Source of the DNA: a virus
Length of the DNA: 51,840 nucleotides
Virus record (IMG/VR): IMGVR_UViG_3300041809_000571
Location: 1-51,840 of that record
Direction: 5' to 3' (one strand)
Positions 25,807-51,840 of this stretch are shown here, piece by piece. How positions within the stretch are numbered: position 1 is the first letter of the stretch; every line of letters starts with the position of its first letter. The position numbers and the translations under genes are program-made. Below the pieces are notes generated by a model, which was not told the origin of the DNA, searched no databases, and saw nothing but the letters and a program-made list of their open reading frames with translations.

Positions 25807-26024
25807 GCAAGCTCCATTTCATAATCTTCGGGATGGGGAACGGGAGGGCCGCTGTAATAGGGATTGCGGTACCACACGTCCCGGTCAGAAAGAATCCACG
25901 CACGGTCGGGGTGCATGGCACCCACGTTCGTAGCATACTCCCTATCAGCTTCCGCTTGAGTTGCCATGTGGTCGGGCGGGTCAGGCTCAAAATCAAACAT
26001 AGAAGCTTCGGAATCGAATGCCAT
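25803..26024 (-). CDS. hypothetical acidic protein (first gene of operon P9)
   Basis: ATG 26024 follows cassette P9 (GGGAGGaaacaccATG). Confidence 0.5.
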   Translation of the reverse strand: MAFDSEASMFDFEPDPPDHMATQAEADREYATNVGAMHPDRAWILSDRDVWYRNPYYSGPPVPHPEDYEMELA

Positions 26025-26031
26025 GGTGTTT

Positions 26032-26054
26032 CCTCCCACTCTCAGTATACCACG
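26032..26054 (-). promoter_or_regulatory. conserved promoter+SD cassette P9
   Basis: tcgTGGTATACTgagagtGGGAGG. Confidence 0.6.
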
Positions 26055-26109
26055 AGATACACCAAAGTTACATGAATTTTTTTCTATGGAACCCTTATGT
26101 AGGAGAATT

Positions 26110-28149
26110 ATGGCTGGAAGCAGTCGTTTCAAAAAAGGCGGAATGATTGGTAAGCTGGTGTCGGAGCAGATAGCGAATGCTCCCCAACTGCTTAACGCCA
26201 TAGACTTTATTGAGTCCATACAGGGATTCAATGTGGAGTTGTTCCCCATCCAGAGGATGATTGTCAAGGCGATATTCGCCGTTCCCTTCGACTACAAGCC
26301 CAAGCCCGTGCCCATGTTTGACGTGTTCCGGGAGAAGCTCAACCGCATCGTGTCCGAAGAGGAATGCCTCCACATTCTCCACGAAGAGGGCAGATGCAAC
26401 ATCGGCGACTGGCGGGACATCCCCGAGCGGGGATACAATGAAGCCTGCATTATCGCCGGTCGTCGTGGTGGTAAGTCGGAGGTCGTAGCGGCCATTGGGG
26501 GATACAAGCTGTATCTCCTCCTTAACCAGAAATCTCCGCAGGAGTATTTTGGTCTCGTGCCCGGCAGTCCGATAGACTTCACCTTTTTGGCGCAGGACGA
26601 CTCCGGGTCCAACCGCCTCTACAACAAGCTCCGGGAAGGTGTCAACCGGGCACCCTTCTTCGGACCTTACCTCAAAAGCAGCAGCGGGAGCGTTTTGAAG
26701 TTCGTGACGGAGTCGGACCGGGGCAAGCCCGAGGTCACTCCCACGGTCATCTGCGAGTCCCGGCCTTGCACCACCAATGCTACCCGGTCGCCTTCCAACG
26801 TGTTTCTGGCCTTGGACGAGTTCGCCCACTTCCGGTCGGAGGTGGGGAGTACCTCGGATGAGGTCTACGGAGCGGCGAAGCCCTCCACGGCAAACTTCCA
26901 CCACGCCGAGCTTCCCAGTGGCGAATGGATAAGCAAAAAGACCATGCAGTTGCTTCCCCCCGAGGAGTACCGGGAGTTTCAGGACTCGCTTGTTCTCAGC
27001 ATTTCTTCGCCCATGACTCGTGTTGGTAAGATGTACGAGCTTCACAAGTTGGCGTTAGAGAAGGGCAAGGACTCCAACATCTTCACCATGCGGGTTTCCA
27101 CCGCTGAGATGAACCCCGAGATTCTGTCCAAGTTCCTGCACGACGAGTACGAGACCAACTCCCTGACCTTCAAGGCGGAGTATGGCGGGCAGTTCTTGGA
27201 CTCCTCCGAAACCTACGTCACTGAGGCCCAGATTAGGGCTTGTACGGATGTACAATACACGGATGAGCAATTCCCCAAGCCCATCCCCAGCACCGCCCGG
27301 CTGAACCTCGTTCGGTTCCACCCCTCCTGTGTGGGCAGACAATATTTCTGGGGTGTTGACCTTGGTATGATGAAAAACGCAACAGCCGTTGCTATCGGAC
27401 ATTTGGAGCACACGGGCGGTAAGAACCCCATCACCCTCGTTTATGACTACATCGACCGCATGATGGTGGGGGAGAAGTTCGAGGGTCCCGGCGTGGAGAT
27501 GCTCCCCGGAATTGAGAAATACGTCAAGTATCAAGCCCTGCCCTTGGAGGACATCCTCCTGTGGCTCCGGGCGCTCAACCGGGTGATGCCCTGCTACCGG
27601 GGGGTCACTGACCAGCACGGTGGTCAGCAACTCGTCCAATTGCTGGAGATAAACCAAATCTACAACGTGGAGCTTATCAACCTCACCACGGTTATCAATA
27701 GCCAGATGGCGTTCAGCTTAAAAGGCTACATGGATAACAAGCGGTGCCGGTTCCCCTATGTGCCCAAGTTCATGGATGAAATCCGGCTGGTAGAAGCGGA
27801 ATACGTCGGCAAATACCAGATTCGAGTGCAGGCCCCCGAGGAGAAGGGAGCCACGGATGACATGTGCGATGCCGTGGAAGAGGTCGCTTGGGTAGCCCAG
27901 AAGTGGTTGATGGAAGAAGGTGGGCTACGACAGGACCCCGGAGGCACCAGTCTGGCAATGCAGGAACAGTTGATGAAAACCCCTGTTCCTATTATGAACC
28001 TCGATAGTGTGTCTATGACGGAAATCAAGGTCATAGAAAGAATGCGTAAGTTACAGAGTTCATTGATGATGTCCCCCGGAACCTCGGTGGTAAGAAACCC
28101 CTTCCATGTGCGTGGAACTGCCCGTATGGGAGGCCGGGGAAGGAGATAA
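26110..28149 (+). CDS. terL: terminase large subunit
   Basis: Walker A IIAGRRGGKSE, Walker B LALDEF, C-terminal nuclease-sized domain; SD AGGAG; about 680 aa. Confidence 0.8.
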   Translation: MAGSSRFKKGGMIGKLVSEQIANAPQLLNAIDFIESIQGFNVELFPIQRMIVKAIFAVPFDYKPKPVPMFDVFREKLNRIVSEEECLHILHEEGRCNIGDWRDIPERGYNEACIIAGRRGGKSEVVAAIGGYKLYLLLNQKSPQEYFGLVPGSPIDFTFLAQDDSGSNRLYNKLREGVNRAPFFGPYLKSSSGSVLKFVTESDRGKPEVTPTVICESRPCTTNATRSPSNVFLALDEFAHFRSEVGSTSDEVYGAAKPSTANFHHAELPSGEWISKKTMQLLPPEEYREFQDSLVLSISSPMTRVGKMYELHKLALEKGKDSNIFTMRVSTAEMNPEILSKFLHDEYETNSLTFKAEYGGQFLDSSETYVTEAQIRACTDVQYTDEQFPKPIPSTARLNLVRFHPSCVGRQYFWGVDLGMMKNATAVAIGHLEHTGGKNPITLVYDYIDRMMVGEKFEGPGVEMLPGIEKYVKYQALPLEDILLWLRALNRVMPCYRGVTDQHGGQQLVQLLEINQIYNVELINLTTVINSQMAFSLKGYMDNKRCRFPYVPKFMDEIRLVEAEYVGKYQIRVQAPEEKGATDDMCDAVEEVAWVAQKWLMEEGGLRQDPGGTSLAMQEQLMKTPVPIMNLDSVSMTEIKVIERMRKLQSSLMMSPGTSVVRNPFHVRGTARMGGRGRR

Positions 28150-28952: not shown

Positions 28953-29357
28953 ATGACACCAAAAGACCTACTGATTTTTGATTCCACCGCCGCTGCGGAC
29001 GGAATCTGGTACAAGATTGACAATGTCTCAGCGCTATCCATCCACATTCTCAATCTGGAGGCTAGCTGCGACACGTGGATTGAAGTGTCCAATAACCCCC
29101 TTTGCGATTATCTGCTTTATGGTGCGGCAAGCACCGCCGTGGTGGGTGTGGCAATGACCGGCAACCTCGGCACGGGAGGCAGTCCTTCGCCGCCCTCCAG
29201 TATGGATGAGCAGGATATCAGCTACAGCCTTGATGGCACGCAGTGCATGTGGTCTCCCTCTTGTCTTGTTTGGAAGTATGTCCGGGTGCGCAAGTCGTCC
29301 ACCGGCACTCCCATTGACGAGACCAAGGCTTACCTGTTCGGACAGGTCAACACCTAA
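28953..29357 (+). CDS. hypothetical beta-rich protein
   Basis: AGGGAGAAGactATG; the ORF-track TTG start was rejected. Confidence 0.45.
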   Translation: MTPKDLLIFDSTAAADGIWYKIDNVSALSIHILNLEASCDTWIEVSNNPLCDYLLYGAASTAVVGVAMTGNLGTGGSPSPPSSMDEQDISYSLDGTQCMWSPSCLVWKYVRVRKSSTGTPIDETKAYLFGQVNT

Positions 29358-29519
29358 CCGCAAAATCAGGTGAATATCAGTATCATTGAATAGAGGCTTC
29401 CCGGTCGGGTTTCCGAATGTAGTCAGTATTCGGATTTCGACGCACATAGGGGGACTTTAGCCCTCCTCTGAAACGGGCAAAGAGATGACCCTTGAATGGG
29501 TTCTCGCTCCGTGAGCATG

Positions 29520-29556
29520 GGACGGTGACTGACGACCGGGATTATTGTCACCGTCC
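29520..29556. terminator. 10-bp perfect-stem hairpin (GGACGGTGAC-N17-GTCACCGTCC) in the convergent gap, abutting the stop of the glycosyltransferase fusion gene
   Basis: the two stem arms are exact reverse complements; no U-tract follows on either strand. Confidence 0.35.
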
Positions 29557-31901
29557 TACTTTACCAAGAACAGCACCCGTTTTCCTTCCGGTGTTTCCAC
29601 GATTTCTTCGATGTGTTTCGGTATAATTTTGCTCAACTGCTTGTGGTAGGAAGACCCCAAGGGACACACCGCTGCAACCTTGAATCCCCTTGCCACGGCA
29701 CGGGCGACTTTCGCCCCAAGCAAGGTTCCTCGCCAGTCTTGACTCACTCCGCCCAGTGCTGCCGGTATTGCAATGGGTGTCATGGTTGGCGCTGCCATTA
29801 TTGAACCCGGAGGAGGAAGCCCCTTATTAGATTGAACCGGAGGAGTCAGGGGATGCGTTTGAGGTGAGGGTTTTGTTTGATTGAACCAAGGACGAACCCC
29901 CGTTGCCATTTCGTGGATTTTCCACATATCCTCTGTACTGGTAATTTGGGTCATAGCCTCCATGCTTTTCAGGTCCGAGTGATTCCTCCACTCAAAGATT
30001 ACATATTTGGAAAGCCGTCTGGGGTGTATTCCGGCTTTTCCAAGTACCTGTCCCACCCACCGGTCCTCAGCCCACTCCCCATCAAATTGGGCATTTACTA
30101 GCAATTTCAGGGAACGTTCAGAAAGCCAGTAGGCTCCCCCACTAACATATGGAAACTTCACGGTACCCTTGGGAAAATCAGGAATTCCCATGTTTGGGCA
30201 ACCCGCATCATGGGGAGGCGCATAAATACCCGCAAAGTCATCTGTCACTAATTCAAACTTATTCATGTTCAGATAACTGTCATCATCAGCCTTAACTAAT
30301 CGTTTATATCCATGGTTAAGTGTCCATTGGAAAAGGGCCTTGGATTTTAGAGTAAGAGATAGGTAGTCATCTGGTACTCCTAACCGTTTACCAGTGAATA
30401 CTTCAACGGTGTACCCGGCCTTCCGTGCTAAGGGAATCCAAGTCTTCTCTTGCATAGCTAAACGTGCTCGGTATTTCGGCTCGTCACAGGTGAGTATTCC
30501 AATAAGGGTTTCTTTGATGGGGGTAGGAATTGGGCGGTTATCAACCTCCTTGGGTACTACCCCGTCTATCACCACCAGCCTGTCGTCATCTATGCTTTCA
30601 ACCCGGAACTCTCTCGTCTCGCACTTCCATGGAATCCTAGCGGCTATCTGCTCGGGAGAGAAGACATCTTCGATTATGTAGACCCCGTTGGGTTTCAGGA
30701 TACGGGGAATTAGGACTGAGGCAGTCAGGATTTGATGCTCGGTCTGGTGTGAGCCGTCGTCTATGATGAGGTCGAAACCGGTGCCTAACATCTCGGCAGC
30801 CCGGAGTAACGACCCTTCGTCGCTCTGGTCGCACTGGAAGGACTTAATCCGGCCTTTGTTGATTAGGATGTCCGGCTTGATGTCTAAAGCGTATATTTCT
30901 GCCTGTGGGAAGTACTCTTCCCACATGAACAGGCTGGCTCCTACGATGTAGTCTTTTGGAGCCATGATAGCAGGGTAGCCTATGCCGATTTCCAAGACCT
31001 TCTTGATGTCCCTACCTTCGAGAAGCTCGTGGTAGTAAGGTGTATAGTCATGACGCACCGACACGGTCTTATCGGTCCTCCACTTTTTGGCGAGCTTGCA
31101 AAGACTCGTTTCTACGGGCATTTCCACCTCGTGTCTCCTTTTCAATTGCTCAAATAAACAGGTCGGGTCATACCGCCTGTTAGGGTCAAGCTTACTTCCT
31201 TCGTGCCAGTGAGAGGAGCTTATGTGAGCGGCATACGACTTAGGAGAGATATTCCAAGTCACTCCTCCTTTGACAAAGTGAAACCGAAGTGACGGCGGCA
31301 CGGCATCAAGCACAATGGGGGGTTTTATGTAGCGGGTAAGAGAGAACTCCGGGATAGCCTTCCGAAACATCCATGGGCCTATCACCATCCAATCCTGCGG
31401 GAGCTTCAACTTCGCCGTGTTCATCAGTTCAATGTGGGCGGCGATGTGCTGTAAGATGGGAGCTTGCTTTGGAGCTTTGAAGATACACCCGGTGATGCAC
31501 TTCATGTTGATATCTTCGGGGGCTGACGGCGGTGGGTCGTAAATCGACACGAGGCTGTTGGAATTGGGATTGTACGCCGTGAAAACATATGGGTCGGGAA
31601 AATCAAACGGGCGTAAGCAGACGGTATCCATATCCACGTACCATCCTCCCACGTGACGGATAAGCTGCACACGGAAGTAATCGGAGAAGTGCGACAGGTG
31701 GATGAAGTCTTTCCGGTCTTTGACGAGCGGTATTTCGTGGATGTCGTGAATGATGGTCCCAGCCGGAATCCCCTTTGTAGGCTCCGACGTATAAAGATGG
31801 AACTCGTGCCCATGGTCTTGGAAGGAGCGGATGCATAGCTTTTGAAGGTTATCCAACTTGGGGCCGCACCACACACCATTGATGATTTTATTGTCTGTCA
31901 T
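29556..31901 (-). CDS. tri-domain fusion: GT32-type DxD glycosyltransferase, SAM-dependent methyltransferase and GT31/Fringe-like galactosyltransferase
   Basis: N-terminus KIINGVWCGPK...GGWYVDMDTV (Gly_transf_sug-like); middle VLEIGIGYPA...DLIIDDGSH (class I MTase motifs I and post-I); C-terminus LVKADDDSYLNMN (GT31 DDD). ATG 31901 in ATGA overlap with the GT11 stop. Confidence 0.7.
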   Translation of the reverse strand: MTDNKIINGVWCGPKLDNLQKLCIRSFQDHGHEFHLYTSEPTKGIPAGTIIHDIHEIPLVKDRKDFIHLSHFSDYFRVQLIRHVGGWYVDMDTVCLRPFDFPDPYVFTAYNPNSNSLVSIYDPPPSAPEDINMKCITGCIFKAPKQAPILQHIAAHIELMNTAKLKLPQDWMVIGPWMFRKAIPEFSLTRYIKPPIVLDAVPPSLRFHFVKGGVTWNISPKSYAAHISSSHWHEGSKLDPNRRYDPTCLFEQLKRRHEVEMPVETSLCKLAKKWRTDKTVSVRHDYTPYYHELLEGRDIKKVLEIGIGYPAIMAPKDYIVGASLFMWEEYFPQAEIYALDIKPDILINKGRIKSFQCDQSDEGSLLRAAEMLGTGFDLIIDDGSHQTEHQILTASVLIPRILKPNGVYIIEDVFSPEQIAARIPWKCETREFRVESIDDDRLVVIDGVVPKEVDNRPIPTPIKETLIGILTCDEPKYRARLAMQEKTWIPLARKAGYTVEVFTGKRLGVPDDYLSLTLKSKALFQWTLNHGYKRLVKADDDSYLNMNKFELVTDDFAGIYAPPHDAGCPNMGIPDFPKGTVKFPYVSGGAYWLSERSLKLLVNAQFDGEWAEDRWVGQVLGKAGIHPRRLSKYVIFEWRNHSDLKSMEAMTQITSTEDMWKIHEMATGVRPWFNQTKPSPQTHPLTPPVQSNKGLPPPGSIMAAPTMTPIAIPAALGGVSQDWRGTLLGAKVARAVARGFKVAAVCPLGSSYHKQLSKIIPKHIEEIVETPEGKRVLFLVK

Positions 31902-32701
31902 AACTTTATCCACCTCTGGGGAACAATGTCCGAAGGGTCTTTGGTACACCCGGCAAACCATTTTTTGGGTGCAATCACAATCCTTCCCTCTGGTGAACAC
32001 TCCCCGAACCAAGCTCCCCACCACCCGAAAGAACTATTGGGAAGGATAGCGTGCTTGCAAAGTCCCATGAGGAAAAGGTCTTCGTGTTCTGTGCCTTGAC
32101 CTGTATCCCCACTTCCCATCCGATTGTGCTTTATGACCCGAAGACCTTGGAAGTTTTGCTCACACCACTCCGGGTCGTCGGAGAATATGAAAAACTTAAC
32201 GTTCTCCTTGCGTTCTTGGATGTATGCCAGTGCCACTTTATAATACTCCATCGTCATGTTGCCGTGGTAGGCGGCGACGGTCGGTATTAGGTAGTCCGTC
32301 CTGCGGACATGCATAAAGGCACTATTAGGGCTAGCCAGAATCTCGTGAGCTATCTCTTGCGATTGCTCACTCACCGGGTTTCGCAGGGAAAGCTCCGACC
32401 GGACCAACCTCTCGTCAAAGTACTTTTCTGTCTGCCAGCATCCGATGAAATGCGTGCCATTCGGAAGAGTGTACACATTCTTATCGTAAGTGAAGATTGG
32501 CTCTGCATACACTGGGCCACGAATATCTTTGGTGAAAGTTACCTTGGTGTTGAATACCCCTAGCCCATAGGCACGATGGCATCCAACCCCCAGCCCACTT
32601 GTGTAAAAGAACAACTCCTCTTTACGTGCCTTTGAGACTGACCGACCGAAGGCGTATTGAAACATCTGATTTCCTAAACCGCCCTCTAAACGAACAAGCA
32701 T
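31898..32701 (-). CDS. alpha-1,2-fucosyltransferase (GT11 family)
   Basis: hallmark motif I GGLGNQMFQYA right after the start (MLVRLEGGLGNQMFQYAFG). Confidence 0.8.
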   Translation of the reverse strand: MLVRLEGGLGNQMFQYAFGRSVSKARKEELFFYTSGLGVGCHRAYGLGVFNTKVTFTKDIRGPVYAEPIFTYDKNVYTLPNGTHFIGCWQTEKYFDERLVRSELSLRNPVSEQSQEIAHEILASPNSAFMHVRRTDYLIPTVAAYHGNMTMEYYKVALAYIQERKENVKFFIFSDDPEWCEQNFQGLRVIKHNRMGSGDTGQGTEHEDLFLMGLCKHAILPNSSFGWWGAWFGECSPEGRIVIAPKKWFAGCTKDPSDIVPQRWIKL

Positions 32702-32703
32702 AG

Positions 32704-33405
32704 CTAATTCCCACCCTTCCACTCACCCTGATTGAGTTTTTCTAGGTGTCGTATCTTTGGGACGAAACTCTTCAAATCCCCCGTCATCCAACGCTCTGGT
32801 GACACCAAGTACTTTAGGGCGGGAAAACAATACGCCGGGGATAGGATTCTAGCGGGAGGATTGCTGGCAAGATAGCAGTTTAGGTGGGATTCGTCATGCC
32901 AGATGGCGATAATCCCATTGCTGCTGTCGATATCCACATTTTTTGCCAAGGTTTTACACATCCCCAAGAAAGCTTTGGAGTCACCACCTTGTAAACACCC
33001 TTGGTAGTAATTGGGGGGGTTTCCCTTTACGCACGCCGTAGACTCCGGGTTACGCTCGAAGGTCGTAACATAGCCGGGGTGAAGGACAGCGGTTATGCCG
33101 TCCGAAAAAACTTCTTCCCCCTCAATCTTGCTGCACGCAAGCATGTCGATATCCATGTAGAAAAGTTGGTCGTAACGAGAAAGAGATGTCTCTTGCTCAA
33201 GGATTGCGTGGTAACGCATGAGCGTAGCGTGAGGCCATCCTAAGTGGGCGTGAGGCACCTTTATGGCGTCAAACGAATCTTCGCTGTCCGTAAACAGCAT
33301 CACATCGTGCGGAGGAAAGAACTCATCCAAAGAGTTAATCAGGGGGGAGACATACCGCATATACTGTTCTCCTCCCGTGGCAATCAGCAAAATCGCTGTT
33401 TTCAT
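32704..33405 (-). CDS. GT6-family glycosyltransferase (histo-blood-group A/B transferase-like, bacterial BoGT6a type)
   Basis: N-terminus MKTAILLIATGGEQY and the block IWHDESHLNCYLASNPPARILSPAY, characteristic of the GT6 family; ATGA coupling with the upstream gene. Confidence 0.85.
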   Translation of the reverse strand: MKTAILLIATGGEQYMRYVSPLINSLDEFFPPHDVMLFTDSEDSFDAIKVPHAHLGWPHATLMRYHAILEQETSLSRYDQLFYMDIDMLACSKIEGEEVFSDGITAVLHPGYVTTFERNPESTACVKGNPPNYYQGCLQGGDSKAFLGMCKTLAKNVDIDSSNGIIAIWHDESHLNCYLASNPPARILSPAYCFPALKYLVSPERWMTGDLKSFVPKIRHLEKLNQGEWKGGN

Positions 33406-34622
33406 AGGGTTTTTATCTCCAATCTGCGGTGTGCCCTAGCGATGTCATCCCTAACCTCGAATACCCAGTCAGGATGTGCAGCAAGTATCTGGCTTTTCAT
33501 GCTCTCAATGGTCGGATACCCGTTGTTTCCGTCAAATGCCCGGATATCATCCACAAGGAGGACAATGTCCGACTTACCCCAGCCAAGAATAGCGTCAAGT
33601 TCGCCTTGTGCCGCACTATCAACGCTTCCCCGCACCGTATTGTCTCCAGACCAGTGAGCATCCAGCCAGAAAATGGTGGGTTTGTTCAGGAGTGGAAAAA
33701 TCTTATACAGCACCAAAGCACTATCACCCTGATAAAGATGAATATTTTCTTTGCCGATAAACCGTCCTTGGCAATGCCTGTAAAAGTCCGAGCTTAACTC
33801 AATAGAGTAAGCGTGCTCGAAGAACCCATGGACCTCCGCTAAAGTATCTCCTCCGCAGGTTCCGGTTTCCACAAGAAGCGGGGTTTTGAATTTGAGAGCA
33901 TACTCTACAATAGTCCACTGCTTATAGGCAGGGGGTGGTGATGGGTTATGCCATGCCATGGTTATCTCCTCGATTACAGGGGTTTTCATTACTCTCTCAA
34001 TCTCCGCCCACGGGACCGATGGGAACGAGGGGGATGGTACTCGCTTAACAGCGGCATTAGTCTTGTGAATGGTGGAAACCAATAAGGTCAAGTCAGCAAG
34101 GTCACACCAACGGTCCATGGGAATTTTCCGCATAAAGGCGGTGTCGGCTCCCTGCACAAGATTCTCGAACTTGTTCTTCTCCCAGATGGACCGACGCCAC
34201 GCCGGGGCGGCAAGCCATTTCTGTGGAGTGAGGTTTTTGTAAATAAACCCCTGCTCGGTGCCATGCAGGTAGTAGTAAAGTGTGGTGGTGCCACAGATGT
34301 CATACTGAGGGTCGGTGAGAGGTTGAACCTGCTTGGCTACCCTATTGGAGGCGTAAAAGTCGTCGTCATCCCATACGATGGCGATTTCTCCCGTGGAGTT
34401 CTCCATGCAGATGTTCATGAGTTGCCCGTGACGGAGCTTCTCGCCGGGCAGCCGGACGTATTTGATGCGGGGGTCATTGGGGAGTAGGTCCTTGATGGGG
34501 TCCGTCCCGTTATCAACGATAACCCACTCCAACTCTGGGTGAGTTTGAGACTGGAAACACGAGATACACCGGGGCCAGAACTCCCTGCGGTTGTGCGTCG
34601 GCGTGAGACAAGAAACTAGCAC
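33402..34622 (-). CDS. GT2 glycosyltransferase fused to a C-terminal SAM-dependent methyltransferase-like domain (GTG start)
   Basis: LVSCLTPTHNRREF (GT2 N-terminal motif), VWDDDDFY (DxD); C-terminal LVETGTCGGDT (MTase-like); GGAGAGagaaataGTG with TAGTG overlap. Confidence 0.7.
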   Translation of the reverse strand: MLVSCLTPTHNRREFWPRCISCFQSQTHPELEWVIVDNGTDPIKDLLPNDPRIKYVRLPGEKLRHGQLMNICMENSTGEIAIVWDDDDFYASNRVAKQVQPLTDPQYDICGTTTLYYYLHGTEQGFIYKNLTPQKWLAAPAWRRSIWEKNKFENLVQGADTAFMRKIPMDRWCDLADLTLLVSTIHKTNAAVKRVPSPSFPSVPWAEIERVMKTPVIEEITMAWHNPSPPPAYKQWTIVEYALKFKTPLLVETGTCGGDTLAEVHGFFEHAYSIELSSDFYRHCQGRFIGKENIHLYQGDSALVLYKIFPLLNKPTIFWLDAHWSGDNTVRGSVDSAAQGELDAILGWGKSDIVLLVDDIRAFDGNNGYPTIESMKSQILAAHPDWVFEVRDDIARAHRRLEIKTL

Positions 34623-35053
34623 TATTTCTCTCTCCGTTCCCGGCGCTTAAGTTCAAACCTCCGCAGGTAGTCCACCGCCGCTTGTAGGATGATTTGGTTG
34701 TCCCGAAAAGAAGCTAGCCCCCAGTCGCAACGGGTGCAAAGCAGTCCTCGGACTTCCCTCGTCGCCGGGTCTCGGTCGATATGGGAAGATGACCGGTCCA
34801 TACTGGGGATGGGGTCATGGCAGACCGCACAGGCCCGGTGGAGTTTCTCCCAGAGAACGACTATCTCCGCATCCGACATGCCGTTCTGGTACTTGCGCAC
34901 ATGCGGGGTGTTCTGTTCCTTAAAACAGAGCTTACACCGGCTACGTTTGCCACTGGGCTGGGACTTGCAGTTGCCAAAGTTATCCAGCGGCAGCCACGCT
35001 TTGCAGCCGGGGCACCACTTCTCTTTGTCATTGAACATCCTGTGTCTGCCCAT
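34622..35053 (-). CDS. Endonuclease VII-like (HNH) nuclease with N-terminal Cys cluster
   Basis: CAVCHDP...SHIDRDPATREVRGLLCTRCDWGL matches the Endo VII H-N-H core. Start is uncertain (ATG 35053, 35038 or 35110); the region upstream of 35053 is AT-rich and looks intergenic. Confidence 0.6.
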   Translation of the reverse strand: MGRHRMFNDKEKWCPGCKAWLPLDNFGNCKSQPSGKRSRCKLCFKEQNTPHVRKYQNGMSDAEIVVLWEKLHRACAVCHDPIPSMDRSSSHIDRDPATREVRGLLCTRCDWGLASFRDNQIILQAAVDYLRRFELKRRERREK

Positions 35054-35184
35054 AAGTGCCCTGTATTTAACCCCTTTGAATTTATCTCCAATTAGGGGTC
35101 CATAGTTCATTTCTTTGATTTTAAGAGTTTTTCGACTATCAACCTCACTATTGAGGCGTCCAAATCGGACACAGGAGAGATAAC

Positions 35185-35973
35185 ATGTCAAGACTATCGA
35201 CTACTCAGATTCTTCAAAACACCAAGAACTACACCGTGTACCCCACGGTTCCCCTTGCGTTGACCCTACCCGCTGTCACTACGGCAAATGACTTGCTCGT
35301 TTGTCTCGTGTTTGCACAAAGGTCTTCGTATGGATTCAACACCGACAACCTGACGGCGGAAACCGTCGCCCCGGTTGTTTCCGACGACAAGAACAACACT
35401 TGGACTCTACGACAGAGCCTAATCAACCTGTATCAGGAACTTTCCGCATCTCCGCCACAATCACCGCCTGTTATCTCCCCTGACGCCTCTTGGAATTTCC
35501 CGAGCGTGTATCTTTTCACCGCTCCGGTCAGTGTCGCCAACGGGCAGAATGTGTACGTCACTGACGCCGGATTGGGCGACTATGTGGCTTCCCCGCCCAT
35601 CGTTTCCCCGCCCATCGCTTTGGGTCGTCCCGTGTTTGACGGCGGTATCAAGGCCCTGTTGTTTGAAGTCCAAGGCCCCAGCACCGATACCGTGGACACT
35701 TCCGGCAAGACCACAGGCGGTCAGACGGCTCTCGGCTATCACCTGATTACCCCCGGTGGAACCAACCGGCTGGTTATCGAGGCTGGTGTGCTCATCGACA
35801 GTTCCGCTCTCGGCTTGGGCACAGGAGCGACGTATCAGCACTCCGCCGCTTACCCGGCTGGAAGCTCCTACTACTTGGTGCAGTCCACCACCCAGACGAC
35901 CGCCGTTGCGTCGGCTGGATTCTCCAACCCCGTGAACTATGCGGGCGGCGTCATCGCCATTGCAATTGTGTAA
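35185..35973 (+). CDS. putative structural/fibre-like protein (Thr/Ser/Gly-rich)
   Basis: GGAGAGataacATG; N-terminal module resembles those of the 2815..4611 protein. Confidence 0.5.
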   Translation: MSRLSTTQILQNTKNYTVYPTVPLALTLPAVTTANDLLVCLVFAQRSSYGFNTDNLTAETVAPVVSDDKNNTWTLRQSLINLYQELSASPPQSPPVISPDASWNFPSVYLFTAPVSVANGQNVYVTDAGLGDYVASPPIVSPPIALGRPVFDGGIKALLFEVQGPSTDTVDTSGKTTGGQTALGYHLITPGGTNRLVIEAGVLIDSSALGLGTGATYQHSAAYPAGSSYYLVQSTTQTTAVASAGFSNPVNYAGGVIAIAIV

Positions 35974-36960: not shown

Positions 36961-37149
36961 ATGAAGAATTGGAAGACGAAGAAGGCCGATGGGAAGACAT
37001 TCAGTACGTTCCGGGTGAATATCGGGGGGCACCATGTCCTCGTGGACTGCGTGCGGATGAAGCAGGCGAAGGACTATGTCCGCAAGCAGTTCCCCGAGTT
37101 TATTCGTAATCACGGCAATAACTCCTTCACCATCAAGAGGGTGAAGTGA
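36961..37149 (+). CDS. hypothetical small basic protein
   Basis: AGGAGGAATCATG. Confidence 0.45.
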   Translation: MKNWKTKKADGKTFSTFRVNIGGHHVLVDCVRMKQAKDYVRKQFPEFIRNHGNNSFTIKRVK

Positions 37150-37973
37150 ATCTAACCCATGGTAGCCTGTTTTCCGGCATCGGAATGATGGACTACGGGT
37201 TGGAGTTGGCGGGATGGAAAACAGTTTGGCAGGTGGAGAATAACGAGTACTGCCAAGCTCTGCTCCGAGAGCATTGGCCGGTTACGCAAAAGTTCAGCGA
37301 TGTGAGGTCTTGTGGACGACACAATCTCGAACCTGTCACCCTTATCAGCGGAGGATTTCCTTGCCAGAATATCTCCGAAGCTGGAAAACTGGAAGGACTC
37401 GGAACTCCCGATAGCCCCACCGACCGCAGCGGCCTTTGGTTCCATTTCCGTCGCATCATCCATGAACTCAGACCTGCTTGGGTTCTGGTTGAGAACGTGG
37501 TTAGGCTCATGCTTAGAGACGATGGGGATACCGTCCTCGCCGATTTGGAAGCGGAGGGTTACGAAAGGGTGCCGCTCGTGGTGGGAGCTTCGGATTGCGG
37601 AGCACCACATAAGAGGCAACGGGTCTTTGTGCTTGCCCACCGCCACGACCCCGACAGCGATTATGTTCCCGCTCCCGGAGTGGAGGCCGCAAGACTTTTT
37701 CCAACTCAAATCCGGGAGATTGCGGAAGCGCAGCGAAGATGGGCACGAGCGAAGCATGAATTGGGCACAAGAACTTGCGGTGAGGGCGGTGATTCAGAAT
37801 CCTGCGCTCGAACCTACCATGGAATTGTGCGAAGATTTTTTGGGAATTCCACGTGGCTGGAGCAGACTCACGCCCTCGGGAACACAATCGTACCTGTCAT
37901 CCCGTGCCTTATCGGAGGCTACGTTGCGGCGGCGGAGAAGGAAATGGAAAGTCGAAACCTCAGTCCCCGATGA
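37146..37973 (+). CDS. DNA (cytosine-5)-methyltransferase
   Basis: motif I LFSGIGMMDYG, motif IV GGFPCQ, motif VI VLVENV, motif VIII KRQRVFV; GTG start in GTGA overlap with the upstream gene. Confidence 0.85.
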   Translation: MNLTHGSLFSGIGMMDYGLELAGWKTVWQVENNEYCQALLREHWPVTQKFSDVRSCGRHNLEPVTLISGGFPCQNISEAGKLEGLGTPDSPTDRSGLWFHFRRIIHELRPAWVLVENVVRLMLRDDGDTVLADLEAEGYERVPLVVGASDCGAPHKRQRVFVLAHRHDPDSDYVPAPGVEAARLFPTQIREIAEAQRRWARAKHELGTRTCGEGGDSESCARTYHGIVRRFFGNSTWLEQTHALGNTIVPVIPCLIGGYVAAAEKEMESRNLSPR

Positions 37974-40180: not shown

Positions 40181-40433
40181 GGCTGAGACTGTAGGGAAGC
40201 ATGGACCGGCGCACACCGGAGTCTTTCTGTGGTTCTACCTCGGGTTTGTAGTCGAAGTCCGCAGGCTCGTGGGGATGCATATCCAACCACTCCGCCACGA
40301 CACTCCAAACTTCATCGTCAGAATCGAGGACATCCAAGGTAAGTAGGGGATTCTCTCCGAAGTCTTCCGATTGAAACTCCCGCCACGGAAGTTCTCCCGC
40401 AATCTTCATTCCCCCTCGGGTCAAGAAAACCAT
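40128..40433 (-). CDS. hypothetical acidic protein
   Basis: 1-nt stop/start overlap with the Endo VII gene; its 3' end overlaps 39671..40180 by 53 nt. Confidence 0.4.
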   Translation of the reverse strand: MVFLTRGGMKIAGELPWREFQSEDFGENPLLTLDVLDSDDEVWSVVAEWLDMHPHEPADFDYKPEVEPQKDSGVRRSMLPYSLSPMLRRASAAGYPAFRRG

Positions 40434-41008
40434 TACGCCTCCTTAACATTTATAGCAAGAGTGGTTTTGTTATGATATTTATCAAGATAGGTTTTGGCGG
40501 CTTCATAACGCATATGATTTGCTTCTAAGAGACCCACTAAAAAATTGCAAGCAGCGCACAGAAGTCCACGATTTTCTCCAGTAAGATGGTCGTGGTCTAC
40601 CATAAAGGGCAGGTTATTTTTTCCATCCCTAGTTTTTCCATTATCAGAAACCCCACAAATGGCACATTTTCCGTTTTGCTTGACTAATAAAGCAGCATAT
40701 TCCTCTAATGTCATTTTGTATTTTCTGAGCAAGTGTCGTGCTCTTGCGATAGATTGATATGCCTTAAGCTTTTCAGGATTGACAGCTATCTCTGTCTTGA
40801 AATAACAATTCCCACAGATTCCTCCCCCTTCTAGTTTCTTTCGCTTTTTGCAAAGAGAACAAATACCATGGCGTTTATCAGCCCTACAAGCCTTACATTT
40901 CCTACTCCAATAAATCCGCACTTCACCGGAAACGAGAGCACAAGGACGACGAGAAAAGTTATTTTCTAGGTCTAATTCTTTTTGACATTTCAAACAAGTC
41001 TTAAGCAT
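40433..41008 (-). CDS. Endonuclease VII-like (HNH) nuclease, AT-rich free-standing gene (putative homing endonuclease)
   Basis: CAICGVSDNG...MVDHDHLTGENRGLLCAACNFLVGLL; N-terminal CxxC pairs; clearly lower GC than the flanking genes. Confidence 0.65.
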   Translation of the reverse strand: MLKTCLKCQKELDLENNFSRRPCALVSGEVRIYWSRKCKACRADKRHGICSLCKKRKKLEGGGICGNCYFKTEIAVNPEKLKAYQSIARARHLLRKYKMTLEEYAALLVKQNGKCAICGVSDNGKTRDGKNNLPFMVDHDHLTGENRGLLCAACNFLVGLLEANHMRYEAAKTYLDKYHNKTTLAINVKEA

Positions 41009-51235: not shown

Positions 51236-51279
51236 TTACCTTAAAACAAGAGACTTAGGGTAAAATCAAACAAGCTCCA

Positions 51280-51840
51280 ATGAAGGTTGTTTTTGCTCCC
51301 ACCGTACCTCCCCCCGAGGGAGCGGTGGTAGCCACTCAAGACGGGTATACGGGGGACATCATTTACATCGCCAAAGACGGGCATTACATCGGGGATGACG
51401 GTTTCGTAGTTCCCAAGAACTTTGTGGAGTTCTACGAGCGGTTCCCGACCATGGTTCGCAATTGGGTCAAGAAGCGCCTGTCCACTCAGCCGGACAATGA
51501 GGTAGAGGATTGGACACAGGACCTTCTTATCCACCTACAATCTCTTCCTGACGAATCCAAGCACCGGGATGCGGGCAAGACAGACCTTGTGCAGGTGTTC
51601 GACCCCTTCCGTCAGTACGGGGCGAGCGAGCGCCGGTTCCGTCACTTCCTAAACGTGTGTCTCATGCGGAAGTTTCTCACAGTGGGAAGCAAACTCTCCC
51701 GCAATCCCTTGAGCCGCATGGATAACGTGTCTTTGTCGGCGGCGGAACAGGACGAATTCATCATGCAGTCGGGTGGTGTGGACGAGTATGTCTACAAGAA
51801 TTCCACCGAGCTTTCCTTGGGCACCGATAAGGAAGCCAAA
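51280..51840 (+). CDS. hypothetical protein, partial (runs off the window end)
   Basis: ATG 51280, open to the end of the window; segment FRHFLNVCLMRKFLTVGSKLSRNPL weakly resembles sigma region 2. Confidence 0.45.
   Translation, partial: MKVVFAPTVPPPEGAVVATQDGYTGDIIYIAKDGHYIGDDGFVVPKNFVEFYERFPTMVRNWVKKRLSTQPDNEVEDWTQDLLIHLQSLPDESKHRDAGKTDLVQVFDPFRQYGASERRFRHFLNVCLMRKFLTVGSKLSRNPLSRMDNVSLSAAEQDEFIMQSGGVDEYVYKNSTELSLGTDKEAK

What the first reader, a model, noticed from the sequence alone, without database searches (positions are those of the whole stretch)
31898..33405. Adjacent GT11 fucosyltransferase and GT6 transferase form a histo-blood-group antigen cassette
In characterised GT6 systems this enzyme adds alpha-1,3-Gal/GalNAc to a Fuc-alpha-1,2-Gal acceptor made by a GT11 enzyme. 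Here the two genes are back to back and their stop and start are separated by only two nucleotides. The GT6 gene begins with a typical short bacterial N-terminus (MKTAILLIATGGEQY) and lacks the eukaryotic stem/TM region. This is the bacterial/phage-type soluble form.
Basis: partly seen in the sequence, partly recalled or inferred. Interest (0 to 1): 0.75.

Follow-up and report, generated by a model that had tools for sequence, protein, structure and literature searches.

The report
Phage blood-group-like sugar-building gene cluster
A large soil or peat phage carries, side by side, relatives of the two enzymes that make human A/B blood-group sugars, inside a five-gene sugar-building operon; the pairing is real but is already visible in annotated cyanophage genomes and is common in bacteria.

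Summary
On the minus strand, 32704-33405 encodes a 233-aa GT6 enzyme (Pfam E 7.6e-21; BoGT6a E 2e-30; model TM 0.85). 31898-32701 encodes a 267-aa GT11 fucosyltransferase-family enzyme (E 1.5e-22) with all its motifs. The junction reads TAG-CT-ATG, a 2-nt gap.

The pair is the middle of a translationally coupled five-gene operon: endonuclease VII, GT2 fused to an O-methyltransferase, GT6, GT11, and a GT32-like/sugar-O-methyltransferase/GT31 fusion. The operon sits in a low-GC accessory island of a jumbo-phage-like genome. The terminase is 44% identical to that of Tunturiibacter phage Tunturi_5.

GT6-GT11 linkage is general: 19 of 26 viral loci and 64 of 80 cellular loci have both. Annotated cyanophages (P-SSM2, B23) already show it.

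The GT6 is the metal-dependent DXD type. It keeps the catalytic residues and two of the three positions that discriminate fucose-accepting enzymes. Its donor motif QGCL and a linked His at the third position match no characterised enzyme. I infer a Gal(NAc)-alpha1,3-(Fuc-alpha1,2)-Gal-like cap on an O-methylated glycan, more likely Gal than GalNAc. The target (host envelope or virion) is unresolved.

This is a new member of a known kind, of moderate-to-low interest.

The parts
32704..33405 (-). GT6 glycosyltransferase, 233 aa, DXD (metal-dependent) type
   Evidence: PF03414 E 7.6e-21. BoGT6a 4ayj E 2e-30. AF2 pLDDT 95.2 and Foldseek TM 0.85 to BoGT6a.
33145..33153 (-). GT6 DXD metal-binding motif D85-I86-D87 (human GTA D211-V-D213; BoGT6a N95-A-N97)
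   Evidence: Alignment. All 120 closest homologues have D at the first position and 119 at the third.
32992..33009 (-). GT6 donor-specificity segment Y133-Y-Q135-G136-C137-L138 (GTA LGGF, GTB MGAF, BoGT6a AGGL, alpha3GT HAAI)
   Evidence: The role of this segment is described in PMC3516806.
32887..32901 (-). GT6 W169-H-D-E172-S173, containing the catalytic Glu (GTA E303, BoGT6a E192)
32737..32754 (-). GT6 C-terminal I218-R-H220-L-E-K223. H220 is the fucose-accommodating 'A7' position (GTA A343, BoGT6a I228, alpha3GT W356). K223 is the conserved Lys (GTA K346, BoGT6a K231).
   Evidence: Residue roles are from PMC3516806.
31898..32701 (-). GT11 (alpha-1,2-fucosyltransferase family) enzyme, 267 aa from ATG 32701
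   Evidence: PF01531 E 1.5e-22. phrog_2644 E 1.5e-46. The 2-nt gap after the GT6 stop is shown.
32291..32311 (-). GT11 motif I HVRRTDY (residues 131-137; inferred GDP-fucose binding HxRRxD). Other motifs: GGLGNQMFQYA at 32651-32683, FIFSDD at 32174-32191, NSSFGWW at 32018-32038.
   Evidence: Conservation across 22 viral GT11 sequences.
33402..34622 (-). GT2 domain (residues 4-128) fused to a class I O-methyltransferase-like domain (about residues 200-406). Its stop overlaps the GT6 start (ATGA).
   Evidence: PF00535 E 1e-18. C-terminal domain: AF2 pLDDT 88.7, Foldseek hits to cation-dependent O-methyltransferases 4pca, 5zw3, 6g80 (MeT1) and 3ssm, and a profile match to O-methyltransferases.
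29556..31901 (-). 781-aa three-domain fusion: GT32-like DXD domain (about 1-260), MycE/TylE-type sugar O-methyltransferase (about 267-415), GT31 Galactosyl_T domain (about 510-630). Its start overlaps the GT11 stop (ATGA).
   Evidence: PF04488 and PF01762. PDB 3ssm MycE E 2.5e-18 and 8ia9 E 2.3e-15.
34622..35056 (-). Endonuclease VII/HNH gene, first gene of the operon (143-aa public call). Its stop shares one base with the GT2 GTG start.
   Evidence: PF02945 E 6.5e-11. phrog_2633 E 2.2e-25. Junction shown.
29521..29555 (-). Perfect 9-bp inverted repeat (GACGGTGAC, 17 nt, GTCACCGTC) directly after the stop of the last gene. It may mark the end of the transcript. There is no T-run.
   Evidence: Sequence read. 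The terminator scan did not pick it up because the loop exceeds 8 nt.
28953..29357 (+). 134-aa ORF flanking the island. It is present only in relatives that carry the island. Function unknown.
   Evidence: No Pfam, PHROG or PDB match.
35185..35973 (+). 262-aa Ser/Thr/Pro-rich ORF, divergent from the operon. It flanks the island in relatives. Function unknown.
   Evidence: No Pfam, PHROG or PDB match.
26110..28149 (+). Terminase large subunit (context: shows the DNA is phage)
   Evidence: PHROG terminase hits. 44% identity over 92% of its length to Tunturiibacter phage Tunturi_5 gp1.

Best explanation
This is an accessory glycan-synthesis operon of a large (probably jumbo) virulent-type phage from soil or peat. 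By terminase similarity, the host is probably an Acidobacteriota member.

Five translationally coupled minus-strand genes encode soluble cytoplasmic enzymes:
- a homing-type endonuclease VII;
- a GT2 fused to an O-methyltransferase;
- a DXD-type GT6;
- a GT11;
- a GT32-like / sugar-O-methyltransferase / GT31 fusion.

Inferred mechanism:
1. The GT2, GT32-like and GT31 domains build a short oligosaccharide that ends in a beta-linked galactose.
2. The GT11 enzyme transfers L-fucose from GDP-fucose to O2 of that galactose, giving an H-like Fuc-alpha1,2-Gal.
3. The metal-dependent GT6 then adds an alpha-1,3-linked hexose from a UDP-sugar to the same galactose. This gives an A/B-blood-group-like branched cap. 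Both specificity positions carry larger residues than GalNAc-specific enzymes (Gln135 and Cys137, against Leu/Ala and Gly), so Gal is more likely than GalNAc.
4. The two methyltransferase domains O-methylate sugars of the glycan.

The acceptor is most likely a host envelope glycolipid or glycan intermediate assembled at the cytoplasmic face, so that infection changes the cell surface. Direct glycosylation of virion proteins is the main alternative.

Shown here: gene structure, family membership, fold, conserved catalytic residues, conserved GT6-GT11 linkage, phage context, island variability.

Inferred: donor, acceptor, linkages, order of steps, target.
For: Family membership and fold.

Residues, from the alignments:
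- Catalytic and donor-binding residues are conserved: I8, T10, R64, D85/D87, H170, D171, E172, K223.
- Acceptor residues shared with the fucose-accepting enzymes GTA/GTB and BoGT6a are present: H109 (= H233/H122), G111 (= G235/G124, not the Trp of alpha3GT), T115, Y133, W169. Their roles are described in PMC3516806.

Coupling of the genes:
- The gap is 2 nt, and ATGA overlaps link the neighbouring genes.
- GT11 lies near GT6 in 19 of 26 viral loci and 64 of 80 cellular loci; it is adjacent in 45 of the 80.
- The two other loci with the same QGC/His GT6 subtype where spacing could be measured also have GT11 abutting: L011 at 15 nt and Synechococcus phage B23 at 12 nt.
- In L002, GT2, methyltransferase and GT6 lie in one stop-free frame.

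A GT31 Galactosyl_T domain, able to supply a beta-Gal, is in the same operon. The methyltransferase domains resemble the sugar O-methyltransferases MycE/TylE and MeT1.

Phage and accessory status:
- Terminase, ligase and endonuclease VII are present.
- The island GC is 0.510 against 0.548 for the rest of the window.
- The island is present with shuffled content in relatives whose terminase is at least 73% identical, and absent in relatives at 51-67%. It is also present in the contigs of the closest GT6 homologues.
- Tunturi_5 is not among the GT6 or GT11 tblastn hits.
Against: - No activity has been measured.
- The donor motif QGCL and the His at the fucose-accommodating position (GTA A343, BoGT6a I228) match no characterised GT6. 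The two features are perfectly linked (38 of 38 homologues). This suggests a distinct specificity that may not be A- or B-like.
- GT11 also contains at least one alpha-1,3-fucosyltransferase, H. hepaticus HhFT2 (PMC4202792), so the linkage is not certain.
- In the closest relatives, GT6 and GT11 are not always adjacent, and some islands have GT11 without GT6 (L128, L129).
- No GDP-fucose synthesis genes, initiating transferase, flippase or ligase were seen in the window, so the route to any surface is unknown.
- The host assignment rests only on terminase similarity.
Confidence: 0.6

Rival explanations
1. The enzymology is the same, but the acceptor is the phage's own virion proteins (capsid, tail or fibre). 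The proteins are glycosylated in the cytoplasm before assembly, as in mycobacteriophages and chloroviruses, giving a variable methylated glycan coat.
For: All enzymes are soluble, and the cassette has no lipid-carrier initiation or export genes. The island lies beside the terminase. It is hypervariable among close relatives and is always flanked by two small unknown beta-rich, Ser/Thr/Pro-rich ORFs that occur only with it. The methyltransferase domain of the fusion matches methyltransferases that sit next to glycosyltransferases in mycobacteriophages such as Omega gp16/17 and the prophiFSAT01-1 group. The GT-MT-GT architecture recalls chlorovirus A064R (my own knowledge). Virion glycosylation in mycobacteriophages is cited in PMC12619734.
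Against: No structural protein has been identified as a target. Characterised GT6 and GT11 enzymes of bacteria act on lipid-linked or free oligosaccharides, not on proteins. PHROGs files both families under moron/host takeover. The flanking ORFs have no recognisable fold or family.
Confidence: 0.3
2. GT6 and GT11 do act in one pathway, but the product is not an ABH-type epitope. The QGCL/His GT6 subfamily would have a different donor (for example Glc or another UDP-hexose) or a different acceptor. Alternatively, the GT11 makes a non-alpha-1,2 linkage or fucosylates a different residue.
For: QGC at the donor site and His at position A7 are strictly co-inherited and differ from every characterised GT6. 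GT11 includes an alpha-1,3-fucosyltransferase. Some related islands have GT11 without GT6.
Against: The remaining acceptor and donor residues are those of the fucose-accepting, Gal/GalNAc-transferring enzymes. GT11 abuts QGC/His-type GT6 in three independent phage lineages. All GT6 enzymes characterised so far transfer alpha-1,3-Gal or GalNAc (PMC3516806).
Confidence: 0.25
3. The glycosyltransferases hypermodify phage DNA, building a glycan on 5-hydroxymethylpyrimidines. This would use the C5 cytosine methyltransferase encoded 2 kb away.
For: A C5 DNA methylase lies at 37146-37973. Phage gene clusters combining a C5-methyltransferase, a dioxygenase and glycosyltransferases are known to put glycans on DNA (bioRxiv 10.1101/2023.12.21.572611).
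Against: No TET/JBP-type dioxygenase or thymidylate-synthase homologue was detected in the neighbouring ORFs or in the precomputed annotations. The DNA glycosyltransferases described are JGT-like or GT8-like GT-A enzymes and T4 beta-GT-like GT-B enzymes, not GT6 or GT11. The methylase is on the other strand, outside the operon. In relatives that lack the island, the methylase is still present (L132, L134, L138).
Confidence: 0.03
4. The adjacency has no functional meaning. The two genes sit together only because glycosyltransferase genes in general cluster, and they act on different glycans.
For: The island holds five GT domains, and its gene order is shuffled among relatives.
Against: GT11 specifically accompanies GT6 in 19 of 26 viral and 64 of 80 cellular loci spread over many phyla, and is usually directly adjacent. 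The two genes are translationally coupled here. Characterised pairs (E. coli O86; BoGT6a and PaGT6 need 2'-fucosylated acceptors) show the biochemical dependence.
Confidence: 0.05

Closest known systems
Prochlorococcus phage P-SSM2 glycan ('LPS') gene cluster, PSSM2_260-271 (GT11 = PSSM2_265, GT6 = PSSM2_268); also P-SSM5 and the Synechococcus phage ACG-2014f group
   Same: It is a phage-encoded, co-oriented cluster of soluble glycosyltransferases that includes both GT11 and a DXD-type GT6, together with GT2 genes. The function is untested there too.
   Different: P-SSM2 is a marine T4-like cyanophage. Its GT6 is only 38% identical and has the AGG/Ala (GalNAc-like) signature. GT11 and GT6 are 1.4 kb apart, separated by two ORFs. 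The cluster also has GT1, GT25 and an epimerase, and no fused GT-methyltransferase proteins.
Synechococcus phages B23 and B3, gp347 (GT11) and gp348 (unannotated GT6)
   Same: GT11 and GT6 abut (12 nt between stop-free frames). The GT6 has the same DXD + QGC + His-A7 signature as the window protein.
   Different: The gene order is GT11 then GT6. Identity is about 32%. These are cyanomyoviruses, and there are no GT2-methyltransferase or GT32-methyltransferase-GT31 fusion genes alongside. The GT6 is annotated only as a hypothetical protein.
E. coli O86 O-antigen enzymes WbnI (GT6 alpha-1,3-Gal transferase) and WbwK/WbnK (GT11 alpha-1,2-Fuc transferase)
   Same: A GT11 makes Fuc-alpha1,2-Gal and a GT6 then adds alpha-1,3-Gal to give a blood-group-B-like unit. 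A beta-1,3-Gal transferase in the same cluster supplies the Gal (PMC4202792). This is the model for the mechanism proposed here.
   Different: It is a chromosomal O-antigen locus, which in my own recollection also carries wzx and wzy. The literature read here says bacterial GT6 enzymes are almost all NXN and metal-independent; I did not check WbnI itself. I could not retrieve its sequence, so its donor motif was not compared.
Bacteroides ovatus BoGT6a (PDB 4AYJ, 4AYL, 4CJ8)
   Same: It is the best solved-structure match (E 2e-30; TM 0.85; 33% identity). It has the same short soluble form and the same acceptor residues His, Gly, Thr, Tyr, Trp and Glu.
   Different: BoGT6a has NAN in place of DID and is metal-independent. 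Its donor motif is AGGL (GalNAc) against QGCL here. Its A7 residue is Ile228 against His220 here.
Parachlamydia acanthamoebae PaGT6 (DXD-type bacterial GT6)
   Same: It is a DXD-type, metal-dependent, short GT6 that needs a 2'-fucosylated acceptor. It was described as resembling the P-SSM2 phage enzyme (PMC3516806).
   Different: PaGT6 transfers GalNAc. A Parachlamydiaceae MAG homologue, not PaGT6 itself, carries AGG/Ala (L048), not QGC/His.
Mycobacteriophage virion-glycosylation genes (GT + methyltransferase pairs) and chlorovirus PBCV-1 A064R (GT-GT-MT fusion)
   Same: These are virus-encoded, cytoplasmic, multi-enzyme glycan builders that include sugar methyltransferases. The methyltransferase domain of the window fusion hits mycobacteriophage methyltransferases that lie next to glycosyltransferases.
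   Different: No GT6 or GT11 was seen in the mycobacteriophage regions matched; I did not examine those systems further. Their target (capsid and tail proteins) is established for them (as cited) but not for this cluster. The resemblance to A064R is from my own knowledge and was not tested.

Membership tests
CAZy GT6 / Pfam PF03414 | Sequence match above the curated threshold | tested here: met
   74.6 bits against a cut-off of 25. NCBIfam NF041524 E 3.6e-40, but at 137.9 bits it is below that model's 250-bit cut-off.
CAZy GT6 / Pfam PF03414 | GT-A fold superimposable on solved GT6 structures | tested here: met
   AF2 pLDDT 95.2. Foldseek TM 0.85 and rmsd 2.2-3.0 to BoGT6a; TM about 0.8 to bovine alpha3GT and human GTA/GTB.
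CAZy GT6 / Pfam PF03414 | Invariant catalytic Glu in WHDES (GTA E303, BoGT6a E192), and the conserved C-terminal Lys (alpha3GT K359, BoGT6a K231) | tested here: met
   E172 and K223. E is invariant and K is present in 118 of the 120 homologues.
CAZy GT6 / Pfam PF03414 | DXD (metal-dependent) or NXN (metal-independent) motif at the subdomain junction | tested here: met
   D85-I-D87, the DXD type. Metal dependence itself is inferred from PaGT6 and the mammalian enzymes.
CAZy GT6 / Pfam PF03414 | Donor-specificity segment that assigns UDP-Gal or UDP-GalNAc | tested here: inconclusive
   QGCL, against LGGF and AGGL (GalNAc) and MGAF and HAAI (Gal). The larger residues at both positions suggest Gal, but no characterised enzyme has this motif.
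CAZy GT6 / Pfam PF03414 | Retaining alpha-1,3 transfer to a beta-Gal | not testable with these tools
   Needs an enzyme assay.
CAZy GT11 / Pfam PF01531 (alpha-1,2-fucosyltransferases) | Sequence match above the curated threshold | tested here: met
   80.6 bits against a cut-off of 23.9. phrog_2644 E 1.5e-46.
CAZy GT11 / Pfam PF01531 (alpha-1,2-fucosyltransferases) | Motif I HxRRxDY, motif II FSDD..WC, motif III NSxF.WWG.W, and the N-terminal G..NQ.FQ.A | tested here: met
   H131-VRRTDY137, F173-SDD176..WC180, N222-SSFGWWGAW231, and G8..N11-Q.FQ.A17. All are conserved in at least 80% of 22 viral GT11 sequences.
CAZy GT11 / Pfam PF01531 (alpha-1,2-fucosyltransferases) | GDP-fucose donor and alpha-1,2 linkage to Gal | not testable with these tools
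   The family also holds an alpha-1,3 enzyme. No solved GT11 structure was found by sequence.
ABH (histo-blood-group-like) antigen gene pair, as in E. coli O86 WbnI/WbwK | GT6 and GT11 co-oriented and adjacent, with linkage conserved across relatives | tested here: met
   2-nt gap. 19 of 26 viral and 64 of 80 cellular loci have both.
ABH (histo-blood-group-like) antigen gene pair, as in E. coli O86 WbnI/WbwK | GT6 acceptor site of the fucose-accepting type (His and Gly as in GTA 233/235, and a small residue at GTA 343), not the alpha3GT type (Gln, Trp, Trp) | tested here: inconclusive
   H109 and G111 are the fucose-accepting type. Position 343 is His220, which is neither Ala/Ile nor Trp.
ABH (histo-blood-group-like) antigen gene pair, as in E. 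coli O86 WbnI/WbwK | An enzyme in the cluster that provides the beta-Gal acceptor | tested here: inconclusive
   A GT31 Galactosyl_T domain is present in the last gene (32.2 bits against a cut-off of 23). Its specificity is unknown.
ABH (histo-blood-group-like) antigen gene pair, as in E. coli O86 WbnI/WbwK | Product carries the Gal(NAc)-alpha1,3-(Fuc-alpha1,2)-Gal epitope | not testable with these tools
   Needs glycan analysis or serology.
Phage DNA glycan hypermodification cluster (C5-MT / 5mYOX or ThyS / GT) | A 5-methylpyrimidine dioxygenase or thymidylate-synthase homologue next to the glycosyltransferases | tested here: not met
   Only a C5 methylase is present. No Tet_JBP or ThyS hit appears in the neighbours or in the precomputed tables.
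Tailed-phage genome (as opposed to a bacterial island) | Phage hallmark genes flanking the cluster, and relatives that are phages | tested here: met
   Terminase 44% identical to Tunturi_5. Ligase and endonuclease VII PHROGs. 24 IMG/VR relatives. No integrase was seen in the window; integration was not otherwise tested.

The most novel reading that the evidence does not exclude
The DXD + QGCL + His-A7 form defines an uncharacterised GT6 subfamily. It makes up about a third of the closest metagenomic homologues and is also found in Synechococcus phages B23 and B3. It may have a donor/acceptor specificity not yet described. In this lineage of Acidobacteriota-type jumbo phages, it would be part of a rapidly shuffling island that coats the virion itself, not the host, with an O-methylated, fucosylated, blood-group-like glycan. 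That would be a phage self-glycosylation system outside the actinobacteriophages.
Probability: 0.15. Interest if true: 0.65.

Novelty: new member of a known kind. Interest (0 to 1): 0.33.

Why it matters
If the prediction holds, blood-group-like Gal(NAc)-alpha1,3-(Fuc-alpha1,2)-Gal caps are made by soil and peat jumbo phages as well as by gut bacteria and marine cyanophages. They would sit inside islands that reshuffle quickly between close relatives, which suggests selection on a surface glycan (superinfection exclusion, receptor masking or virion shielding).

In practical terms, the locus offers compact, soluble, metal-dependent GT6 and GT11 enzymes and two sugar O-methyltransferase domains for glycan synthesis. 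The QGCL/His GT6 subtype is an untested specificity variant that could sharpen the rules for reading donor choice from sequence.

It does not change current understanding of GT6/GT11 biology. The pairing and its presence in phages were already visible in public annotations.

Tried and rejected
- Nucleotide search of the cluster against 50,697 phage records found no match.
- tRNA scan found none.
- The promoter/terminator consensus scan gave counts at or below the shuffled expectation, so it was uninformative.
- A PDB sequence search with GT11 gave only spurious cytomegalovirus assemblin hits at E about 0.002. There is no solved GT11 relative by sequence.
- Pfam on ten large window proteins gave almost nothing apart from Ig-like Big_3_5 domains.
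- Two exact-protein look-ups at the right end of the window failed, so the right flank of the 364-kb contig was not examined.
- The flanking ORFs of 134 and 262 aa have no Pfam, PHROG or PDB match.
- Four papers were not held: Brew et al. 2010, Tumbale & Brew 2009, Freeman et al. 2023. The E. coli O86 WbnI sequence could not be fetched, so the one characterised bacterial Gal-specific GT6 was not compared at the donor motif.
- Considered and rejected: a bacterial or prophage island. Phage hallmark genes extend for more than 60 kb, all relatives are viral contigs, and no integrase was seen.
- Considered and rejected: a DNA-glycosylation cluster. No dioxygenase or ThyS is present.
- Considered and rejected: the N-terminus as a signal peptide. 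It is the first beta strand of the GT-A fold.
- Considered and rejected: the 255-aa GT11 start. It removes a conserved motif.

Full report

Yes. Both genes lie on the minus strand at the stated coordinates.

- The ORF at 32704-33405 encodes 233 aa starting MKTAILLIATGGEQY. It matches Pfam Glyco_transf_6 at 74.6 bits against a cut-off of 25, E 7.6e-21. It also matches NCBIfam Gltr_6 at E 3.6e-40 and phrog_3317 at E 4e-40.
- The next gene, 31898-32701, encodes 267 aa. It matches Glyco_transf_11 at 80.6 bits against a cut-off of 23.9, E 1.5e-22, and phrog_2644 at E 1.5e-46.
- The junction reads AAT TAG CT ATG CTT. Two nucleotides separate the GT6 stop from the GT11 ATG, and a purine-rich stretch lies upstream.
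- The mechanical ORF list starts GT11 at an upstream GTG (32722). Two public gene calls start at a downstream ATG (255 aa). Only the ATG at 32701 keeps the N-terminal G..NQ.FQ.A motif, which is conserved in at least 80% of 22 viral GT11 sequences. The two JGI calls use this start.
- GT11 motif I (HVRRTDY, residues 131-137), motif II (FSDD..WC) and motif III (NSSFGWWGAW) are all present.

**2. The GT6 protein**

The best solved relative is Bacteroides ovatus BoGT6a, at E 2e-30. The IWHDES...SPAY block aligns residue for residue. An AlphaFold model built on 48 homologues has pLDDT 95.2. It superimposes on BoGT6a at TM 0.85, and on bovine alpha3GT and human GTA/GTB at TM about 0.8.

I aligned the protein to human GTA. 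I wrote the GTA sequence from memory and verified it against PDB 4y62, where it matched everywhere except the two engineered positions 266 and 268. The alignment gives these equivalences:

| Window residue | Human GTA | BoGT6a / other |
|---|---|---|
| I8, T10 | F121, I123 | I8, T10 (UDP contacts) |
| R64 | R188 | |
| D85-I-D87 | D211-V-D213 | N95-A-N97 |
| H109-P-G111 | H233-P-G235 | |
| T115 | T245 | |
| Y133 | Y264 | |
| Q135-G-C137-L | L266-G-G268-F | |
| W169-H-D-E172 | W300-H-D-E303 | |
| H220 | A343 | |
| K223 | K346 | |

The protein therefore has the catalytic Glu, the C-terminal Lys and a true DXD motif. BoGT6a and almost all bacterial GT6 known to the literature have NXN and are metal-independent. 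DXD was reported for vertebrates, cyanophage P-SSM2 and Parachlamydia (PMC3961637, PMC3516806). All 120 closest database homologues are DXD. There is no stem or membrane anchor, because residue 8 already lies in the first beta strand.

**3. Specificity residues**

PMC3516806 states three relevant points:
- The four-residue segment AGGL (BoGT6a), LGGF/MGAF (GTA/GTB) or HAAI (alpha3GT) sets GalNAc against Gal.
- The fucose-accepting enzymes have His and Gly where alpha3GT has Gln and Trp.
- A small residue (GTA Ala343, BoGT6a Ile228), where alpha3GT has Trp356, makes room for the 2'-fucose.

The window protein has the fucose-accepting His109 and Gly111. Its donor segment is QGCL, and it has His220 at the third acceptor position.

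In the 120 homologues these two features are strictly linked. QGC goes with His in 38 of 38 cases, while CGG and AGG go mostly with Ala. This is a distinct, uncharacterised subtype.

Both specificity positions carry larger side chains than in GalNAc-specific enzymes. By analogy I therefore favour UDP-Gal. This is an inference of modest strength.

**4. Is the pairing meaningful?**

- Among 26 IMG/VR loci that encode a GT6 relative, 19 have a GT11 on the same strand within the fetched flanks.
- Among the best 80 of 327 GT6 loci in GTDB species genomes, 64 have GT11 within 8 kb and 45 have it within 300 nt.
- The two other QGC/His-type loci where spacing could be measured also have GT11 abutting: L011 at 15 nt and Synechococcus phage B23 at 12 nt.
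- PaGT6 is inactive on non-fucosylated LacNAc, and BoGT6a uses 2'-fucosyl-lactose and similar acceptors. E. coli O86 uses a GT11 and then a GT6 to make a B-like unit.

The linkage is therefore a conserved functional pairing and not chance.

**5. The pair is part of a larger operon**

Five minus-strand genes are joined by overlaps or tiny gaps:
- Endonuclease VII (34622-35056).
- A 406-aa GT2 whose C-terminal 200 residues form a methyltransferase-like domain.
- GT6.
- GT11.
- A 781-aa fusion.

For the C-terminal domain of the GT2 protein, the AF2 model has pLDDT 88.7. Foldseek places it with cation-dependent O-methyltransferases, including the sugar methyltransferases MeT1 and MycE, at TM about 0.55-0.59.

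The fusion holds three domains:
- A GT32-like DXD domain (PF04488).
- A MycE/TylE-type sugar O-methyltransferase (PDB 3ssm, E 2.5e-18).
- A GT31 Galactosyl_T domain.

A perfect 9-bp inverted repeat follows the last stop codon.

The operon thus encodes five glycosyltransferase domains and two methyltransferase domains. None has a membrane segment or export function.

**6. Genomic context**

The window is phage DNA.
- It contains a terminase, an ATP-dependent ligase, two endonuclease VII genes, a pyrimidine-dimer glycosylase and a C5 DNA methylase. Most other ORFs are orphans.
- The terminase is 44% identical over 92% of its length to that of Tunturiibacter phage Tunturi_5. That phage is a 309-kb jumbo myovirus of an Acidobacteriota host from tundra soil (PMC11924767).
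- A homologue of the Tunturi_5 sigma factor gp3 lies at the right end of the window.
- The identical sequence occurs on a 364-kb ENA contig, on a 53-kb Logan contig and in two JGI metagenomes.

**7. The island is accessory and variable**

- Its GC content is 0.510 against 0.548 for the rest of the window.
- Tunturi_5 is absent from the tblastn hit lists for GT6 and GT11.
- Among 24 IMG/VR relatives found with the terminase, those at 73% identity or more carry a glycosyltransferase island at the same place, but with different content:
  - L124-L127 have EndoVII-GT2-GT11-GT31-MT-GT6-GT31.
  - L128 and L129 have two GT11, two GT32-like, GT31 and MT, and no GT6.
  - L122 has only GT32-like, GT31 and MT.
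- Relatives at 51-67% identity, on contigs up to 463 kb, have no island.
- The contigs carrying the closest GT6 homologues (71%, 59% and 56% identity) show further permutations, with unfused GT2 and methyltransferase, two GT11, and FkbM- and TylF-type methyltransferases. Two of the three place the island beside a terminase-like gene.
- Two small unknown ORFs (134 aa and 262 aa) flank the island and occur only where it does.

**8. How it most likely works**

Shown: the gene structure, families, fold, catalytic residues, conserved linkage, phage context and island variability.

Inferred:
1. The GT2, GT32-like and GT31 domains build a short oligosaccharide ending in beta-Gal.
2. GT11 adds alpha-1,2-fucose from GDP-fucose.
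3. The metal-dependent GT6 adds alpha-1,3-Gal (less likely GalNAc).
4. The methyltransferases O-methylate sugars.

The acceptor cannot be read from sequence. I slightly favour a host envelope glycolipid or glycan built at the cytoplasmic face. This is how bacterial GT6/GT11 pairs work, and PHROGs files both families under moron/host takeover.

Direct glycosylation of virion proteins is a serious rival (about 0.3), for four reasons:
- The cassette is self-contained and soluble.
- It lies beside the packaging genes.
- It co-varies with two unknown flanking ORFs.
- Its methyltransferase resembles those that sit next to mycobacteriophage glycosyltransferases.

DNA hypermodification is unlikely. 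No dioxygenase or ThyS accompanies the C5 methylase, and that methylase persists in relatives that lack the island.

**9. Comparison with what is known, and novelty**

GT6 together with GT11 in a phage glycosyltransferase cluster is already present in annotated genomes:
- P-SSM2 has PSSM2_265 and PSSM2_268.
- P-SSM5 and members of the ACG-2014f group have both genes.
- B23 and B3 have gp347 and gp348.
- Two huge uncultured phages of 635 and 642 kb have both genes.

The literature had also noted phage-like DXD GT6 genes in marine metagenomes.

What is new here:
- The lineage and habitat: an Acidobacteriota-type jumbo phage from soil or peat.
- The operon architecture with two GT-methyltransferase fusion proteins.
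- The shuffling island.
- The observation that QGCL/His is a coherent, uncharacterised GT6 subtype.

I file it as a new member of a known kind, with moderate-to-low interest.

Noticed in passing
window 25966-28149 and 51259-51840; whole window: The window is part of a jumbo-phage-like genome. The terminase is 44% identical to that of Tunturiibacter phage Tunturi_5 (309 kb, Acidobacteriota host). A homologue of its sigma factor gp3 lies at the right end of the window. The same DNA sits on a 364-kb ENA contig (ERZ27249816 k141_1180871, window = contig positions 12277-64116). About 23 kb separates the terminase from this sigma gene here, against about 1.3 kb in Tunturi_5.
   Followed up: partly
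L120-L143 (IMG/VR relatives found with the terminase); window 28953-35973: The glycosyltransferase island is present with reshuffled gene content in relatives whose terminase is at least 73% identical, and absent in relatives at 51-67%. The 134-aa and 262-aa ORFs flanking it occur only together with it. In L121 (terminase 98% identical) the block sigma-like/p262/EndoVII/GT2 is inverted relative to the window.
   Followed up: partly
L120, L121; contigs of P0002 and P0010: Terminase homologues in close relatives are split into three tblastn segments, or are called as 1065-1066 aa against 679 aa here. This suggests intein or homing-endonuclease insertions in the terminase gene of some strains.
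   Followed up: no
window 34622-35056 (-), 40433-41008 (-); L031, L033, L034: There are several homing-type nuclease genes. Two endonuclease VII/HNH genes lie in the window, and one of them heads the glycosyltransferase operon. GIY-YIG and NUMOD3 genes lie just left of the window in related contigs and vary between strains.
   Followed up: no
window 37146-37973 (+): A C5 cytosine DNA methyltransferase (PF00145, E 1.3e-38) lies 2 kb from the island. No TET/JBP or thymidylate-synthase partner was detected nearby. The methylase is retained in relatives that lack the island.
   Followed up: partly
window 42857-47671 (-) and 41001-42857 (-): A 1604-aa protein and a 618-aa protein have no Pfam match. 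The only hit is a 120-residue match of the larger protein to phrog_1915 (unknown function). Neither matches the Tunturi_5 DNA polymerase region by tblastn.
   Followed up: no
window 2815-4611 (+) and 4611-5579 (+); L031 4345-5238: Two adjacent proteins carry Big_3_5 Ig-like domains and are probably tail or fibre proteins. Just left of the window on the 364-kb contig is a protein with an Mtd_N domain (major tropism determinant N-terminal domain).
   Followed up: no
L002 5701-7713: In one IMG/VR contig, the GT2, methyltransferase-like and GT6 domains lie in a single stop-free frame of 671 codons. This may be a three-domain fusion linking the neighbours of the window GT6 to it.
   Followed up: partly
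L039-L118 (GTDB genome loci): DXD-type GT6 genes are now common in MAGs of Dependentiae/Babeliales, Chlamydiota, Planctomycetota and Pseudomonadota. They also appear in MAGs labelled Woesearchaeota or 'archaeon' (L070, L071, L093). The 2014 literature knew only two bacterial DXD GT6 and none in archaea. Mis-binned viral contigs were not excluded.
   Followed up: no
window 31898-32701 (-): A phmmer search of the GT11 protein against PDB returns only cytomegalovirus assemblin protease at E about 0.002-0.007 over residues 79-189. I judge this a chance match. No solved GT11 relative was found by sequence.
   Followed up: no
window 29521-29555: A perfect 9-bp inverted repeat with a 17-nt loop lies immediately after the stop of the last operon gene, with no T-run. 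It may mark a transcript end or a processing site.
   Followed up: no
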